Assembly (NCBI RefSeq): GCF_021869535.1
Contig: NW_026262668.1
Span: 108,438,001-108,502,000 of the forward strand
Direction: 5' to 3'
From: Mytilus californianus
Taxonomy: Eukaryota
DNA length: 64,000 bases
How positions within the stretch are numbered: position 1 is the stretch's first letter; the number at the start of each line of letters is the position of its first letter. The position numbers were made by a program. Shown here piece after piece: positions 6,001-15,000 of this stretch.

Positions 6001-9000
6001 TTAAAACAAGGCTGAAGATACCAAAGGTACAATCAAATTCATAATTCGAATGAAACCGACGAAACTACGGCAAACAAAATCGATAGATACACAAACAAGT
6101 CTTCAAAGCACTGCATAGAAAACTAAAGAATGAGCAACACGAACTAGGATGAATTTTTAGTTGTAATCTCTGTCCTGCCTTTTTATTTTTCACACTATTC
6201 GGTCTTGCCTTTTTTTTATAAATTTATCCTGACTTTTTTTACATAAATTGTCATCCTGCCTTTTTTTTTTTGCAAAGTTGCTCATCCTGCCTTTTTTTTT
6301 TTTGCTCAAAGCTCCTGTCCTGCCTTTTTTCAAATTTCATCCTAGCCCCCTCCATAAAAATCAAATGGTAGCTCCCTTAATCAACTGCCATTTCTCTATT
6401 CAGTAATTTCCAGTGATCGTCTCAAGGCATATGCTTTGTCACCCTCTGAAATAGATGTTTACTGGGATCCAGCAGACTATACAGACTTGAAGGCTTATAC
6501 TCTATTCTACAGAAAACAAACAGATGATACAACCGTGTTCCATGCAGTACACCCAGATGTGTCTATGACGTCTTATGTAATAGAAGATCTTAAACCAGGT
6601 ACAATATACGATGTGAAATTAGAGGGCCTTGCAAATGAAGGATATCGAATAACTACTGAATCTTCCGAAACAACAACATCCAAACCGGGTATGTAGAAAA
6701 TCGTGTGTCTTAAATAAATTAAAGTTACAAAACAAAAAGCAGGTTTCATCCCACTTCATTAAAAATGACATTTGCAGTAAAGAATTGTTTTGTGAACTAT
6801 ATTATTAACAATAGAAAATATTAATTTTAGAAACAATTTTGTTTAATTTTTTTATGAATCTTACTTATGTTCTTATTTAATTACAAAATACTTTGATCGT
6901 TTCAATCTCACAAGAAACAAAGTGTAGCACCATAACATTTTGTAGCTAATTTATTCAATTCACTATCATCGGGGAACGTGAAAAACAACGGCCTGATTTA
7001 TGTACAAAACAACAAACGATAAACAAATTTGATATACAGCAACAAACGACAACCACTTAATTTCAGGTTCCTGATAGTTATCAAAGGTACCAGGATTATA
7101 ATTTAATACGCCCGACGCGCGTTTCGTCTACATAAGACTCATCAGTGACGCTCAGATCAAAATAGTTATAAAGCTAAACAAATACAAAGTTGAAGAGCAT
7201 TGAGGAACCAAATTCCAAAAAAGTTGTGCCAAATACGGCTAAGGTAATCTATTCCTGGGATAAGAAAATCCTTAGTTTTTCGAAAAATCGACTTGGAACA
7301 AGAACATACAGAATGTGGCGAGGTTTAAAGTTGTTTGCTTTAAAATTGAACGTAAATACACGTATTATTTTTCTAAATTAAAAATGTCGACCTGGAATTT
7401 GCGAAAATGAATATTATAAGTAATGATCAGCATCAATGCAAAAAGGGTCTATCAACGTTTAAATTTTTTTTCCAAACAAGTATATACTGATAACATGGAA
7501 TTATTTGCTTTGTAGTAAATGGATTTGCGTTAATCATAGCAAACCATTCGGATTTCCGATTGTCTCATCTTACGAATCTAGATGGTATTCAAACAGATAT
7601 ATGTAAGTAAATTGATATAATTCCAAAAAGAAATATGTATGTTAATTATTAGAATTTTGCAGTATTATCAATTTTTTTTATTTTTCTACGATCAACCCTA
7701 CCATCCCCAACGCCCAATTAAACTATCGACTACATCTTCTCCTTAAGCAATGCTTTTCCTACAAAAAAATGAATCGCAGATACAATTCCTTGTTTTAGGT
7801 CATAAAAAATCTTACTTTGTGAAGAAACATACTGATTCCAAAAACAAATACACTGAAATGACATAATCAATATGCTAGACATTTTGATCGATAACATATT
7901 TGTTGAGTTTGATGGTTTGATATTTCAACAAACAGTCTGTAATAGGTTCTAATTTTGCAACTCTACTGACCGACTTGTTTTGTATTGATATGAAGCAGAA
8001 TTCATACAAAACCTTCTACAAGACAAGAAGAAAAAGCATCTTGCAAAGTTCTATAATTTCTCTTTCAAATATATTGAAGACATCCTGTCACTTAATAACC
8101 CCATTTCAGTAAGTGCATGCACCTCCTATTTCCTGGAATTAAGGATACTAACGAACCTAGAAGGTCTACTACTTGTCTTGATCTTTTCCTTGATATTAAC
8201 ACAGATAAACGACTTTAAACTAGAATGTTTGAGACACGTTTTAATTTCAACGTTCCAAATGTAAACTTCCGATTTCTCAGCAGTAACACACCATCTGCCC
8301 CATCGTTCATACTTAATCCCTTTTGTAAAACTCAATTCAAAGATTATCATCCTCGTCCTGAATATACATGTACATGAAACATTTATCACTAAACGTTAAA
8401 AAATTAACACACAAACGATATGCAATTTGTAATTGGCTTTCCCCGAATTCGGATTTATATTGTAGTTCTATGTTATCTTAGTTTAATTTCTTTTAAGTGA
8501 GCTTTAAAGAGCAATTAGAAGATTTCGGGTTTGAAGTTTTGATCGAAGAAAATATAACTGGACTTGAAATAATCCAGGCAGTGGAAAAATATTCATCCCG
8601 TCTAGAGCAACAGCACATAGACTGCTTTTTATGTGTTGTCACTGGGTACATGTATAATGGTTATATTTATGGAATAGATGGAACACCAGTTTTATTGAAT
8701 AAAGTGTTTGAACCACTACGAGTTGCCGATAAAAAGGAACTAGACAAATGTGAGATTGGAGAAGGCAAAGTTAAACTTTTATTTGTCGATGCATTTAAAG
8801 TACGCGAGCATGTCATCGAAGAATTGGATGGTAAGATTGTGAAATTTATATCGTACTAATTTTTATGTAACGTGATGTCTAAAAATTATAGTTGATAAGG
8901 AGTAAATCACTGTTAAATAACATCTAAAATAGTTACTTGCAATATTGTCTTGGAAAATCTACCCCATAACTGCTATTCCCAACAACGTATACAGTGTTTA

Positions 9001-12000: not shown

Positions 12001-15000
12001 ATGTCAGGTAAGCAATTACACTTCACACGTTTTCAGTTTTATAAATATATATGAATAGCTTAAACTTTTCCCTATGGTTTTGTTTCTACCTTGATTTGTT
12101 ATTTACATGGATTTAAGAGATTTGAACATTGGTAATCTACTATTGCCTCTAATTTATATGCCGATGAATATTAGTGTAAAGTGTAATAATTTCGCGGATT
12201 GGATATTAAATGAAAACGGTCAAAACTTTTCTGTGTAAAAAAAAGTATTTTATGGTGTTTTGTTTTGCATATATAAGGTATGCCACGTGCTTTGTATATA
12301 TAAAGTATGTTACGATTGTTTGTTATTTATTACAGGATCAACAGTTCAGTATATATTAGAAGAGCCAGACTTTTTCATTGCATCTGCAACTGCAACTACT
12401 GTATACAAGTCTTCAACGTCATCGTTTCTTAATACTTTGAAGAGACATCTAGCGGAAAAGTACGAAAAGTATGTTTGCTTCTTTTAACTAATAAGGAGAA
12501 GTTATTCCAAGTTAAAAATCTGGGATCGGAAAGATAAGAAAAAAGAAAAAATATAATATTAAGAAAGTTTACAAAAGTATAAATTATATTTCCCATTCAG
12601 AACAGGGGATATTTCGTACTTTAAAATAAATGACCACCAAAAGATAAATCAAATGTCTTGACACTTTTTCCAATCGTCCATTCAAACTTTAATGTTGTGA
12701 ACACGTATTTGTTGCTTAGTCTTTAGTTTTCTATGTTGTGTCATCTGTACTATTATTTGAATGTTTGTCTTTTTATTTTTGGCCATGGCGTTGTCAGTTT
12801 GTTTTCGATCTACGAGTTTGACTGTCCATCTGGTATCTTTCGTCCCTCTTTTAAACAGTTTACAACATATATACACGAAATGTCTCAATGAAACACTTTG
12901 ATATCTCTTATTTTTAAATTGTTTTAGCTTACCAATGGTTTTGTCTCAGTAAAACTTATTACAGAAACAATGTTTATTACGCCCTTTTAGTCTACACGAG
13001 ACACTCAAATGGCACTCGAATTAAAACAGTTGGAAGGCCAATTGAATTAAAGTTGAACAGAATCTTAAAATTAAAAACAAAATTAAAAAAAAAAGATGTG
13101 TAAGATCTAGCTCAGGCTATCTTAGCCTTAGGATTGAAAAAGTGTTTCGACAAATTTTAATATTTCATGAGCTGTAATTGTACAGAAAATAACCGTATTA
13201 ATGATATATTAAGCCGGCACAGAATTCATGGCTGCAGGACTGGCGAAACGCTCACCAGCAGTGGCATCGACCGAATGTTTGTAAAAACTCTTCAGAGACC
13301 AGGCTTATAATTATTCTGCATTTGTTTTTAAGACTTTTGTTTTGCCTTTTTGTTGTAGGAAAGATATACGAAGTATATTAGAAGATGTCAAGAAGGAAAT
13401 AATATGTTCATTGGACAATTATGAAATTCCACAATCTGTAACGACATTGCGTTATCCCGTATTTCTAGGAAAGGTCTAAAGTTTATAACGATAAAATGGT
13501 TAAAATGGAATATATATATAAAGTAAACGCTATCTTTATATCATGAAGACTTAATATACGGGAATCATGTAGTGACAGTTCATTTATGTATACATAAACG
13601 CTTGTCATATTAAAGAAAATAAAAAAGGTAACCTTGTTTGACTCTTCTTATTTGTTCTCAACAAATGTTAATGATTGTAGCAAAAACCAACAACAAATCC
13701 CAAACAATATCGCACCAGAACTTATCTTAATGATATTGAATAATAGAAACATTCAAAATTTACGTTATAATAAAATTATAATGCTCGATCGATAGATAGA
13801 TAGATAGAGAGAGAGATAGATCAATTAATAGATTGATAGATCGAGATTGACATCGAGAGAGAGAGAGAGAATTTTCTGAAAGCGCGCGGTAACAAACGCT
13901 GCAAATGCTGCCTACAGATGCATCACTCATCAACATTCCACAGAAGGGCCAACGATAATAACCGTAGGATATTTTGCTATGTGACCTGCAAAAATTAATG
14001 TTATTTACATTCTAGAATGTTTTGTTTGTGGCCTCCAATAATTGATGAGTCGAAGCAGCCTTTCCACAAAACCCTCAATGGCCATAGAAGTGATATCTCT
14101 AAGAAGCCACCCCTAAGTTGGCCAGCATTTCAGACAGTCGGATCATAATCTTGATGACTGTTACTGCATTAACGTCCTAGTGATTGAACAGAACATTCAC
14201 TGGAATGGTATTGTGTCAACACGATTTTAAAACAGCATCTTTGTATATTACCATCTTATATTAGTACCGTTGCGCAAATCTTAAGACTTTTATATTTTTT
14301 TTTCCTTTTCTGCGCAGTATCGCCTATTTCATACGATCCGGTACGTATTAAATTTGATGGTTGGTCCTTTTTATAGACTTCTATATATATTTATATATAA
14401 TAGTTGCAAGGCCAAATCCATAATGATGCTGAAGAGCCTTGAAACCCATGAATTCCAAACCGTTCGTCCAAATCTGGCTGTAAAAACTGTAATGTTGAGA
14501 CGGTGTCATTTTGATCTAAAAATCAGACACAGCCTTACAAAAAAAGATATTTTCTACAAGATGTGTAATTCAAAGATTTGATGTTGGAAAAAATGATCTT
14601 TTTGGTTAAGTCTTTGATTGATATTCAATTTTCCAAATCTAAGTGTAAAATGGTCATTTTAGAACAAGCACTTTCGACATGTTTTAGATCATAATTGGCA
14701 TTTCTGCACTAAAGTGTACAGATCATGTCTTATTTGTTTTTCAATAAGATTAACTTAAGTTTGGAAGTTTGAAAGATTTTTGCGATTTCAGTGGCCAATT
14801 AATGGTTCTTATAATACCTCCATGTTTTGGTAGGGAGAATATGGTCAACTTGTAAAAATAATTTCCTTTCCATACGATAAGCCAAACGTTAATCAAACCA
14901 TATTCAATTATAGTGCTTTGACTAACACGATTTTCGATCCTTGCTTTGTATGTTTTCGGTATATAAGAATTCAGGTATTTCAACATTTTAATCAGGAATC

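What the first reader, a model, noticed from the sequence alone, without database searches (positions are those of the whole stretch)
8498..12468. Gene 1 is a fully dead pseudo-caspase with an intact reading frame
Aligned to gene 4 (CFVCIISSHG; FQACN), gene 1 has CFLCVVTGYM and VDAFK, so His is Tyr and Cys is Phe. The S1-pocket Arg positions are also changed (NLDG for the RxG loop; VYK for SYR). All ten exons nonetheless stay in frame. This fits a selected non-catalytic role like the c-FLIP class of caspase regulators (inference).
Basis: partly seen in the sequence, partly recalled or inferred. Interest (0 to 1): 0.65.

Follow-up and report, generated by a model that had tools for sequence, protein, structure and literature searches.

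The report
Dead caspase-like mussel gene split by FN3
A California mussel gene encodes a well-conserved caspase look-alike that has lost every residue needed to cut proteins and carries fibronectin-type domains wedged between its two halves, so it probably works as a binding protein, a kind of variant already noted in bivalves.

Summary
The window is Mytilus californianus. Gene 1 is NCBI's "uncharacterized protein LOC127730711". It has ten GT-AG exons, 4322-13479 on the + strand, and encodes 770 aa (753 in isoform X2). The finding's coordinates, 8498-12468, are exons 5-9.

- **Dead site.** HMMER alignment to solved caspases puts Tyr at the catalytic His, Phe at the catalytic Cys and Asp at the Gln of QACxG. 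The S1 arginines are also gone.
- **Fold kept.** Pfam Peptidase_C14 still matches both halves. The AF2 model matches caspase-8, CED-3 and caspase-9 at target TM 0.72-0.75.
Two FN3 domains sit between the p20-like and p10-like halves, and a third FN3 plus long predicted helices lie upstream. Each FN3 is one phase 1-1 exon.
- **Evidence for selection.**
  - The M. edulis orthologue is 686/753 identical with no frame-breaking indel.
  - Conservation is uneven: 75.5% in the N-terminus, 92% in the pseudo-caspase, 96-97% in the coiled coil and FN3-2/3.
  - The pseudo-caspase is as conserved as the neighbouring intact caspase.
  - A 7-member clade shares the dead site.

The c-FLIP analogy is only loose: there are no DEDs, the gene is not a CFLAR relative, and binding is untested. 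Bivalve caspases with mutated dyads, and an FN3-caspase combination, are already in print.

The parts
4322..4757 (+). Exon 1: start codon, acidic low-complexity N-terminus and start of the long predicted helices
   Evidence: tblastn of P0001 residues 1-147 gives 146/147 identity. Donor A|GTATGT. No Pfam family above cut-off. No signal peptide or TM segment by hydropathy.
5091..5381 (+). Exon 2: coiled-coil-like region
   Evidence: AF2 helices 153-183 and 192-238. 143/148 identical to M. edulis over residues 95-242.
6404..6688 (+). Exon 3: FN3 domain 1. Isoform X2 uses an alternative acceptor at 6453-6454, so the exon then starts at 6455.
   Evidence: Pfam fn3 E 6.4e-08, 33.1 bits. Acceptors read. 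Symmetric phase 1-1 exon, 285 nt.
7516..7602 (+). Exon 4: N-terminal strand of the p20-like half (GFALIIANHSDF...TNLDG). Leu at 7578-7580 stands where the first S1 Arg would be.
   Evidence: 29/29 identical to P0001 residues 321-349.
8498..8830 (+). Exon 5: core of the p20-like half. Tyr (8647-8649) stands at the catalytic His, Asp (8788-8790) at the Gln and Phe (8794-8796) at the catalytic Cys. It ends with the conserved IEELD.
   Evidence: Pfam Peptidase_C14 E 2.9e-09, 37.4 bits against a cut-off of 21.4. PDB alignments. Alignment A1. Motif in 7 of 7 clade members.
9868..10161 (+). Exon 6: FN3 domain 2, inserted between the p20-like and p10-like halves
   Evidence: Pfam fn3 E 6.2e-06, 26.8 bits. 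Phase 1-1, 294 nt. It begins DSLQPR, like the gene-2 exon that begins DSFQPR.
11244..11555 (+). Exon 7: FN3 domain 3, also inside the caspase fold
   Evidence: Pfam fn3 E 3.8e-11, 43.5 bits. Phase 1-1, 312 nt. Its best paralogous match is the last FN3 of gene 2 (16518-16258, E 5e-10) and the single FN3 of P0006.
11987..12007 (+). Exon 8: 21-nt micro-exon (linker, TPSMMS)
   Evidence: AG|GA...CAG|GT read. Present in P0001 and P0002. 7/7 identical between the two species.
12336..12468 (+). Exon 9: first part of the p10-like half (EEPDFFIASATATTVYK...). Lys at 12407-12409 lies in the loop that normally carries the second S1 Arg.
   Evidence: The Pfam Peptidase_C14 match on P0001 runs 323-745 over profile positions 2-229 of 233.
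13359..13479 (+). Exon 10: end of the p10-like half, with stop TAA at 13477-13479
   Evidence: Paralogous to the last exon of the upstream gene 0 at 666-878 (17/44 identical).

Best explanation
Gene 1 is a real, maintained gene for an intracellular multi-domain protein. From N to C it has an acidic tail, about 150 residues of predicted long helices (coiled-coil-like), an FN3 domain, and then a complete caspase fold. The p20-like and p10-like halves of that fold are separated by two FN3 domains.

The caspase fold cannot be a protease of the caspase type. It has no nucleophile (Cys to Phe), no general base (His to Tyr) and none of the Arg/Gln/Arg trio that holds the substrate Asp.

Origin. It belongs to a lineage-specific family: gene 1, the upstream gene 0 type represented by P0006, and probably gene 2 on the opposite strand. 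The family arose from effector-type caspase genes by tandem duplication. Phase 1-1 FN3 exons were shuffled into the phase-1 intron that separates the p20 and p10 exons.

Shown: the anatomy, the dead site, the fold (predicted), and conservation between two Mytilus species and across a clade.

Inferred mechanism. The protein acts without catalysis as an adaptor. The helices would oligomerise it. The FN3 domains and the caspase fold would serve as binding surfaces. The caspase fold most plausibly keeps the one non-catalytic property of caspases, which is pairing through the dimer interface with itself or with an active paralogue. The conserved (I/V/M)(E/Q)ELD at the end of the p20-like half is a candidate site for cleavage by active caspases.

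In principle this is what FLIP(L) does, but the recruitment domains differ and the origin is independent.
For: Identity of the gene. The exon-5 translation is 100% identical to P0001, 'uncharacterized protein LOC127730711 isoform X2 [Mytilus californianus]'. It is 92% identical to P0002, 'protein sidekick-1-like [Mytilus edulis]' (2 of 280 candidates passed).

Dead site.

Fold retained.
- Pfam Peptidase_C14 matches exon 5 alone at 37.4 bits. It matches P0001 at 66.9 bits over residues 323-745, profile 2-229/233, so both halves are recognised.
- In the AF2 model the caspase parts have block pLDDT of about 87-97.
- Foldseek against the PDB: caspase-8 4ps1_A E 6.1e-09 with target TM 0.73, CED-3 0.66-0.72, caspase-9 0.72. 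Alignments run about 450 columns, spanning both halves.

FN3 domains. Three are found, at E 6.4e-08, 6.2e-06 and 3.8e-11.

Exon shuffling. Exons 3, 6 and 7 are single symmetric phase 1-1 exons. The p20/p10 intron is phase 1 in genes 1, 2, 3 and 4.

Selection.
- P0001 and P0002 are 686/753 identical. The only gap is the 17-aa splice difference.
- Identity is heterogeneous. N-terminus 71/94, helices 143/148, pseudo-p20 129/141, FN3-2 95/98, FN3-3 100/104, pseudo-p10 77/83. Chi-square 48.8, df 6, p 8e-09. N-terminus against pseudo-caspase, Fisher p 1.7e-04.
- The pseudo-caspase (206/224) is as conserved as the exons of the dyad-intact neighbour gene 4 against its M. edulis orthologue P0035 (313/340, p 1.0).

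Age of the dead site.
- A clade of 7 of 29 rows (SH-aLRT 98) contains gene 1, P0002, P0003, P0004, P0005, P0006 and P0007. All 7 have Tyr at His, Asp at Gln and F/Y/V/A at Cys.
- The path from gene 1 to the P0005-7 subclade is about 1.55 changes per column, against 0.083 to the M. edulis orthologue.

Other points.
- No signal peptide or TM segment: maximum Kyte-Doolittle(19) is 0.88.
- The motif K[VI][RK]E..[IVM][EQ]ELD occurs in 7 of 7 clade members.
- P0002 and P0035 both report a longest contig of 108,102,362 bp. They therefore probably lie on one M. edulis chromosome (inference).
Against: - No codon-level dN/dS, no expression data and no population data were obtainable. Selection therefore rests on protein-level comparisons of two species and on unnamed database fragments.
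- The N-terminus used as the fast-evolving yardstick may itself be constrained, or under positive selection.
- The gene-4 comparison uses exon-wise tblastn rows that overlap at junctions. It leaves out one row (P0035 residues 14-35 at 45625-45690, 18/22).
- The AF2 model is poor overall (mean pLDDT 59.3, pTM 0.43). FN3-2 and FN3-3 are mostly below 50, from only 24 aligned rows, so how the inserts sit on the fold is unknown.
- Gene 2 shares the FN3-interrupted layout but keeps the Cys. The tree does not place it with the dead clade: its branch is long and unplaced.
- Nothing here shows any binding partner, oligomerisation or cleavage.
- Adjacency to active caspases follows from tandem duplication and is not evidence of functional coupling.
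Confidence: 0.6

Rival explanations
1. c-FLIP-like regulator in the strict sense. The pseudo-caspase domain heterodimerises with the neighbouring dyad-intact caspases (genes 3 and 4) and tunes their activation.
For: Dead dyad with a kept fold. Tandem location beside intact caspase genes, as CFLAR lies beside CASP8 and CASP10 (review PMC7586951, passages). A conserved Asp-containing motif ends the p20-like half, comparable in place to the FLIP(L) cleavage site (the comparison is inference).
Against: No DED, CARD or any domain shared with genes 3 and 4 that could co-recruit them. The gene-3 prodomain exon 35785-36183 has no Pfam family, and P0035 has Peptidase_C14 only. The p20/p10 linker is replaced by about 200 residues of FN3. 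Genes 3 and 4 are only 25-29% identical to gene 1 in the p20 exon and sit in a separate clade.
Confidence: 0.25
2. Scaffold unrelated to caspase signalling. The caspase fold is kept only as a structural or binding module of a coiled-coil/FN3 protein with other partners, for instance cytoskeletal or immune-signalling ones.
For: The best-conserved parts are the helices and FN3-2/3 (96-97%), not the pseudo-caspase (92%). An automatic source name for the M. edulis orthologue is 'sidekick-1-like', which reflects FN3 content. There are no death-fold domains.
Against: The pseudo-caspase halves are still clearly constrained and keep a caspase-like core. Reviews note that pseudoenzymes usually act on the pathway of their active relatives (PMC7586951, passage).
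Confidence: 0.3
3. Young unprocessed pseudogene that has simply not yet picked up a frame-breaking mutation.
For: All catalytic and S1 residues are lost. The Pfam score is half that of the active neighbour's orthologue (66.9 against 131.4 bits).
Against: 770 codons are open in two species with no indel. Conservation along the protein is strongly uneven. The same dead site is found in a clade whose internal distances are about 19 times the californianus-edulis distance. All ten exons keep GT-AG sites.
Confidence: 0.03
4. Still an enzyme, using a non-canonical nucleophile or a different chemistry.
For: Other invertebrate caspase-like sequences with Tyr at the His position keep the Cys (P0008 and P0013). 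The Tyr alone may therefore be tolerated in some lineages.
Against: In gene 1 the Cys is Phe. The only His near the site (residue 454) is Gln in M. edulis. All three Asp-binding residues are changed as well.
Confidence: 0.03

Closest known systems
c-FLIP long form, FLIP(L)/CFLAR (vertebrates)
   Same: A caspase paralogue that keeps the fold but has lost both dyad residues. It is encoded beside active paralogues and is thought to be kept for a non-catalytic role (review PMC7586951, passages read).
   Different: FLIP(L) has two DEDs, derives from the caspase-8/10 lineage, and has Arg and Tyr at the dyad positions. Gene 1 has Tyr and Phe, no DED, a coiled-coil-like N-terminus and three FN3 domains, two of them inside the fold. 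Its nearest solved relatives by sequence are effector-type caspases. The origin is independent.
Bivalve caspase homologues with mutated dyads (C. gigas Cg3/7-like group, M. galloprovincialis Mg2-like, eight Mc-caspase-3/6/7 of M. coruscus)
   Same: Lineage-specific, tandemly expanded caspase-3/6/7-like genes lacking His and/or Cys and the Asp-binding Arg/Gln. Both papers say they may have lost catalysis or have unusual functions (PMC7836458, passages; PMC10967218, passages and section 8).
   Different: Those papers list such genes but do not analyse one. In the passages I read there is no description of FN3 domains lying between p20 and p10, of the exon-phase logic, or of conservation between species. 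The oyster set was called 'p20 only' by ScanProsite. Whether that hides split folds like this one is unknown.
FN3-CASc domain combination reported in Mytilus coruscus
   Same: PMC10967218 states that 'two caspases contained FN3 or PB1 domain in their prodomains'. That is very possibly the M. coruscus counterpart of this family.
   Different: The paper places the FN3 in the prodomain. Here one FN3 is indeed upstream, but two lie inside the caspase domain.
Effector caspases-3/6/7 and the neighbouring genes 3 and 4
   Same: Same fold and the same intron position and phase between p20 and p10. Best PDB sequence hits are a reconstructed ancestral effector caspase-3/6/7 (6pdq_A, E 2.5e-07) and an ancestral caspase-6.
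   Different: Dyad and S1 pocket lost, FN3 insert present, and long N-terminal extension present.

Membership tests
Caspase family (Peptidase C14A) - homology and fold | Significant match to the family profile covering both the p20 and p10 parts | tested here: met
   PF00656: exon 5 alone scores 37.4 bits (cut-off 21.4). P0001 scores 66.9 bits over residues 323-745, profile 2-229/233.
Caspase family (Peptidase C14A) - homology and fold | Caspase alpha/beta fold | tested here: met
   Predicted only. AF2 pLDDT is about 87-97 in the caspase parts. Foldseek target TM is 0.72-0.75 to caspase-8, -9 and -7 and 0.66-0.72 to CED-3.
Active caspase (enzyme) | Catalytic His-Cys dyad (SHG ... QACxG) | tested here: not met
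   Tyr at His and Phe at Cys, in HMMER alignments to solved caspases and in A1. The same holds in M. edulis.
Active caspase (enzyme) | Arg / Gln / Arg that bind the P1 Asp | tested here: not met
   Leu in NLDG against NRPG/KRPG. Asp for Gln. No Arg in the shortened p10 loop, where Lys is the nearest candidate and the column is ambiguous.
c-FLIP / CFLAR | Tandem death effector domains N-terminal to the pseudo-protease | tested here: not met
   No DED in any exon or in P0001/P0002 at E up to 0.01-1.
c-FLIP / CFLAR | Pseudo-caspase domain lacking the dyad | tested here: met
   The residues differ from FLIP's Arg315 and Tyr360.
c-FLIP / CFLAR | Descent from the caspase-8/10 lineage | tested here: not met
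   The best solved sequence relatives are effector-type. In the p20-exon tree gene 1 sits in a lineage-specific 7-row clade (SH-aLRT 98). No FLIP chain is among the 60 PDB sequence hits shown, or among the Foldseek rows shown to rank 50, which omit further chains of entries already listed.
c-FLIP / CFLAR | Heterodimer with an active caspase through the protease-like domain | not testable with these tools
   Needs a binding experiment. See Tried and rejected for the one prediction job.
Bivalve dyad-mutated caspase-3/6/7-like homologues | CASc domain of executioner type, His and/or Cys replaced, in an expanded tandem cluster | tested here: met
.
FN3-containing caspase of M. coruscus (PMC10967218) | Being the orthologue of the gene counted there | not testable with these tools

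The most novel reading that the evidence does not exclude
Mussels evolved, independently of vertebrate c-FLIP, a family of 'split' pseudo-caspases. FN3 exons were shuffled into the p20/p10 linker intron, replacing the cleavable activation linker with binding domains. The dyad was lost afterwards: gene 2 keeps the Cys, while genes 0 and 1 have lost both residues. The coiled-coil-tethered dead fold now acts as a platform or decoy that pairs with, or is cut at its conserved ELD site by, the neighbouring active caspases. It would thereby set the threshold for cell death in an animal with a hugely expanded caspase repertoire.
Probability: 0.2. Interest if true: 0.65.

Novelty: new variant of a known kind. 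Interest (0 to 1): 0.42.

Why it matters
Bivalves have dozens of caspase genes, and many carry altered active sites. Two surveys note this without explaining any case (PMC7836458, PMC10967218).

This locus gives a concrete, tractable example. It holds a dead but conserved caspase fold with domain insertions. It also holds a paralogue that looks like an intermediate (gene 2) and two dyad-intact neighbours, all within 64 kb.

If the protein regulates caspases, it would be a convergent counterpart of FLIP(L). It would also be a clean case of exon shuffling into an enzyme's activation linker. It further suggests that some 'p20-only' bivalve caspases may be split folds missed by motif scans.

If the protein is a scaffold unrelated to cell death, it is one more pseudoenzyme of modest interest.

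Tried and rejected
- **Complex prediction**. I paired the M. edulis caspase-3-like P0035 (residues 128-357) with the M. edulis gene-1 orthologue P0002 (residues 338-770). The verdict was 'no answer': score 0.01 against a mark of 0.34, the alignments were not used, and the controls were not folded. This says nothing for or against binding.
- **Published synonymous divergence.** I looked for a californianus-edulis value to calibrate the comparison. One search and passages of PMC7162527 and PMC7045716 gave no value.
The origin of P0003-P0007 therefore stays unknown.
- **Full-length relatives.** A search with residues 320-753 of P0001 returned only P0001 and P0002, 2 of 6702 candidates. 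Gene 2's product and other paralogues are too divergent for it.
- **ESM Atlas**. The only hits were bacterial Peptidase_C14+fn3 clusters at 0.78-0.85, below the 0.9 level. I treated them as domain-composition look-alikes, not relatives.
- **tRNA-like stretch in intron 6** (about 10930-11190). ARAGORN found 0 genes, Rfam found 0 matches at E up to 0.1, and there is no second copy in the window.
- **Bacterial promoter and terminator scan** upstream of exon 1. It is not meaningful for a eukaryote and was ignored.
- **Literature search** was badly framed: min_terms 2 let 'oyster' and 'mussel' dominate. It gave nothing useful.
- Searches were corrected.
- **Second structure job** was not used. Only pLDDT and secondary structure are returned, so it would not show how the FN3 domains sit on the fold.

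Full report
**Where we are.** The window is AT-rich (GC 0.29-0.36 in 2-kb steps) and has no N. The translation of 8500-8829 is 100% identical to a 753-aa NCBI protein, 'uncharacterized protein LOC127730711 isoform X2 [Mytilus californianus]' (P0001). It is 92% identical to a 770-aa 'protein sidekick-1-like [Mytilus edulis]' (P0002) (2 of 280 candidates passed). This is a mussel genome.

**How the spliced model was handled.** Every search that used the window's own sequence was made exon by exon. The joined step was left out. Where a full-length protein was needed, I used, by id, the public records that those exon searches returned (P0001, P0002, P0035).

**The observation.**
CFLCVVTGYM and VDAFK are in the open frame 8497-8859. 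CFVCIISSHG and FQACN are in 58466-58888.
- The stated ends are true splice sites: 8498 follows ...ttttaag, and 12468 precedes gtatgt.
- A HMMER search of solved structures aligns the exon to caspases. It found 152 distinct sequences at E up to 1, the best being the ancestral effector caspase-3/6/7 6pdq_A at E 2.5e-07.
- In that alignment ...VVTGYMYNG faces ...LLSHGEEG, and LLFVDAFK faces LFFIQACR. So Tyr stands at the catalytic His, Phe at the catalytic Cys, and Asp at the Gln.
- A MAFFT alignment with genes 2, 3 and 4 and seven database relatives agrees.
- The first S1 Arg is Leu: TNLDG against NRPG and KRPG. That codon lies in exon 4, outside the finding's coordinates.
- In the p10 loop gene 1 has ...ATATTVYKSS where gene 3 has ...PGSVSYRSE. 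The loop is shorter, so the column is ambiguous, but it contains no Arg.
Gene 4 has AYN.

**The gene model.** There are ten exons: 4322-4757, 5091-5381, 6404-6688, 7516-7602, 8498-8830, 9868-10161, 11244-11555, 11987-12007, 12336-12468 and 13359-13479.
- All have GT-AG borders.
- Their lengths sum to 2313 nt, which is 770 codons plus TAA. That is the length of the M. edulis protein.
- Isoform X2 (753 aa) uses an AG 51 nt inside exon 3.
- tblastn of P0001 back onto the window finds every exon except the 21-nt micro-exon 8, which was read from the sequence.
- Introns 1-8 are phase 1 and intron 9 is phase 2.
- With stops at 6.4% of codons, 770 open codons is not chance (P about 9e-23). Only 27 of 8170 stop-to-stop frames in the window reach 95 aa.

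Exon by exon, Pfam gives the following:
- Peptidase_C14 for exon 5 (E 2.9e-09, 37.4 bits against a cut-off of 21.4);
- fn3 for exon 3 (E 6.4e-08), exon 6 (E 6.2e-06) and exon 7 (E 3.8e-11);
- nothing above cut-off for exons 1, 2, 4, 9 and 10.

On P0001 the caspase profile matches as one stretch, 323-745, over profile positions 2-229 of 233. The p20-like and p10-like halves are therefore both present, and they are separated by two FN3 domains.

The AF2 model (24-row alignment A2) has mean pLDDT 59.3 and pTM 0.43.
- It is confident in the caspase parts (blocks of 87-97) and weak in FN3-2 and FN3-3.
- It predicts helices at 75-131, 153-183 and 192-238.

Foldseek against the PDB returns only caspases at the top: caspase-8 4ps1_A (E 6.1e-09, target TM 0.73), CED-3, caspase-9 and caspase-7. 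Alignments of about 450 columns bridge the insert.

Hydropathy shows no signal peptide or membrane segment. The protein should therefore be intracellular.

**The neighbourhood.** The window holds a caspase gene cluster.
- **Gene 0.** Only its last exon (666-878, +) is in the window. It is 74% identical to the end of P0006. P0006 is a 365-aa protein with p20, one FN3 and p10, and it also has a dead site (SYKYHG and LIDTAK).
- **Gene 2.** It lies on the minus strand, convergent with gene 1.
  - It has an upstream FN3 (26827-27207), a p20 N-part (23319-23486) and a p20 core (21282-21569; Peptidase_C14 E 3.3e-13).
  - It has three FN3 exons (about 20779-21075, 17909-18145 and 16258-16530) and a p10 (15541-15702).
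  - It has Ser at the His position but keeps IDACQG.
- **Genes 3 and 4** (+ strand) have SSHG and FQAC.

**Exon-phase logic.** The p20/p10 intron is phase 1 in all four genes, and the FN3 exons of gene 2 are phase 1-1 like those of gene 1. Two of the gene-2 FN3 exons begin like their gene-1 counterparts: DSFQPR against DSLQPR, and ENMQPK against QFMQPR. The last FN3 exons are each other's best paralogous match (E 5e-10).

This is the signature of exon shuffling into the linker intron before genes 1 and 2 diverged. Since gene 2 keeps the Cys, the insertion probably came before the complete loss of the dyad. That ordering is an inference, because the p20 tree leaves gene 2 on a long unplaced branch.

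**Is it maintained by selection?** Codon-level dN/dS could not be run, because no congener DNA is reachable. Three protein-level lines of evidence are available.

1. *Ortholog conservation.* P0001 and P0002 are identical at 686 of 753 aligned positions. The only gap is the 17-aa splice difference, and all the dead-site residues are identical.

2. *Uneven conservation along the protein*.

| Part | Identical to M. edulis |
|---|---|
| N-terminus | 71/94 |
| Helices | 143/148 |
| FN3-1 | 64/78 |
| Pseudo-p20 | 129/141 |
| FN3-2 | 95/98 |
| FN3-3 | 100/104 |
| Pseudo-p10 | 77/83 |

The heterogeneity test gives chi-square 48.8, df 6, p 8e-09. N-terminus against pseudo-caspase gives Fisher p 1.7e-04. 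A decaying pseudogene would drift evenly.

The pseudo-caspase (206/224) is as conserved as the exons of the dyad-intact gene 4 against its M. edulis orthologue P0035 (313/340, p 1.0). Those exon-wise rows overlap a little at junctions. I left out one further row, a probable first exon at 45625-45690 (18/22).

3. *Age of the dead site.* A HMMER scan of 1.84 billion representatives found 31 proteins at E up to 0.001, 4 at up to 1e-10 and 2 at up to 1e-30. I built a quick IQ-TREE on the p20 exon, with these inputs:
- 29 rows and 104 of 128 columns;
- 22 of the 31 hits, plus P0002, P0035, P0036 and the four window exons;
- P0014, P0017, P0018, P0020, P0024, P0028, P0030, P0032 and P0033 left out, by my own choice, as repetitive or partial matches.

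In that tree gene 1, P0002, P0003 and P0004 group with P0005, P0006 and P0007 at SH-aLRT 98. All seven have Tyr at His, Asp at Gln and a non-Cys residue (F, Y, V or A) at Cys. The path between the two subclades is about 1.55 changes per column, against 0.083 between the two Mytilus orthologues. The site has therefore been dead for much longer than the species split, while the fold signature persisted.

Caveats: the tree is a quick one on about 100 columns. The five fragments have no names, and the tool that would give them was switched off.

**How it probably works.**
- *Shown.* The fold is kept, and every residue needed for caspase chemistry is gone.
- *Inferred.* The protein acts by binding. 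The long helices suggest oligomerisation, and the FN3 domains are generic binding modules. The one activity a dead caspase fold can retain is pairing through the caspase dimer interface, which is how FLIP(L) works.
- *A possible cleavage site.* A conserved K[VI][RK]E..[IVM][EQ]ELD motif ends the p20-like half in 7 of 7 clade members. It lies where caspases are normally cleaved between subunits, so the protein may also be a substrate or decoy. This is speculation from position only.
- *My estimates.* About 0.25 for a FLIP-like action on the neighbouring caspases. About 0.3 for a scaffold role unrelated to caspases. Very little for 'pseudogene' or 'still an enzyme'.

**Comparison with what is known.** It is not a c-FLIP family member.
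- It has no DEDs.
- It is not of the caspase-8 lineage.
- Its replacement residues differ from FLIP's.
It resembles FLIP(L) only in principle.

The closer precedent is in bivalves.
- PMC7836458 (passages read) reports oyster and mussel caspase homologues without the conserved His/Cys. It says they may have lost catalysis and calls many of them 'p20 only'. The words 'fibronectin' and 'FN3' do not occur in its main text.
[quoted passage not shown] So both dead bivalve caspases and an FN3-caspase combination are in print. In the passages I read, I did not find any of the following:
- the FN3 domains placed inside the caspase fold;
- the exon-phase explanation;
- the dead clade;
- the between-species conservation.

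The searches behind this were: 'caspase'+'Mytilus'+'fibronectin type III' (2 papers); 'CASc'+'FN3' (3 papers); 'caspase-like'/'fibronectin type III'/'intersubunit linker' (18 papers with at least two terms); and 'pseudo-caspase' (57 papers). Supplementary tables, which may name this gene's M. coruscus counterpart and give its expression, were closed.

**Verdict.** The locus is a new variant of a known kind and of moderate interest.

Noticed in passing
window 60564-60743 (gene 4 p10 exon), and P0035: Gene 4 keeps the His-Cys dyad (SSHG, FQACN) but has AYN where gene 3 has SYR. The second S1 arginine is therefore missing in an otherwise intact caspase. The M. edulis orthologue has the same AYN. 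This may mean a specificity other than Asp.
   Followed up: partly
window 15541-27207, minus strand (gene 2): A convergent paralogue with the layout FN3, p20, three FN3, p10. It has Ser at the catalytic His but keeps IDACQG, so it looks like a half-dead intermediate of the same split-fold family. Its complete exon model and intactness were not worked out.
   Followed up: partly
window 666-878 (+): Last exon of a further upstream caspase-like gene (gene 0), cut by the window start. It is 74% identical to the C-terminus of P0006, a 365-aa dead p20-FN3-p10 protein from an unnamed source.
   Followed up: partly
window about 10930-11190 (intron 6 of gene 1): This stretch begins like a tRNA (GGGGCCTCGGTGGCCGAGTGGTCTAAG...) and ends in an A-rich tail, which suggests a tRNA-derived SINE. 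ARAGORN and Rfam find nothing, and there is no second copy in the window.
   Followed up: yes
window about 55167-56267 (+), upstream of the gene-4 p20 exons: Degenerate tandem coding-like repeats (...FVKTLP.ND....ICQ...). The M. coruscus protein model P0034 includes them as its N-terminus, but the M. edulis model P0035 does not. They are probably intronic repeats mis-annotated as coding in one species.
   Followed up: no
window 45625-45690 (+): This stretch matches residues 14-35 of the M. edulis gene-4 orthologue P0035 (18/22 identical). Gene 4 may therefore start about 8 kb upstream of its prodomain exon at 54083-54379.
   Followed up: no
P0008 and P0013, P0036: Other invertebrate caspase-3-like proteins have Tyr at the catalytic His (SYG/TYG) while keeping QAC/EAC. 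They include a named Acropora digitifera one (P0036, read by eye and not aligned by a tool). His-to-Tyr seems to recur in marine invertebrate caspases.
   Followed up: no
window 6404-6454 (exon 3): The alternative acceptor of isoform X2 removes the first 17 residues of FN3-1, which include its first strand. X2 would therefore carry a truncated FN3.
   Followed up: partly
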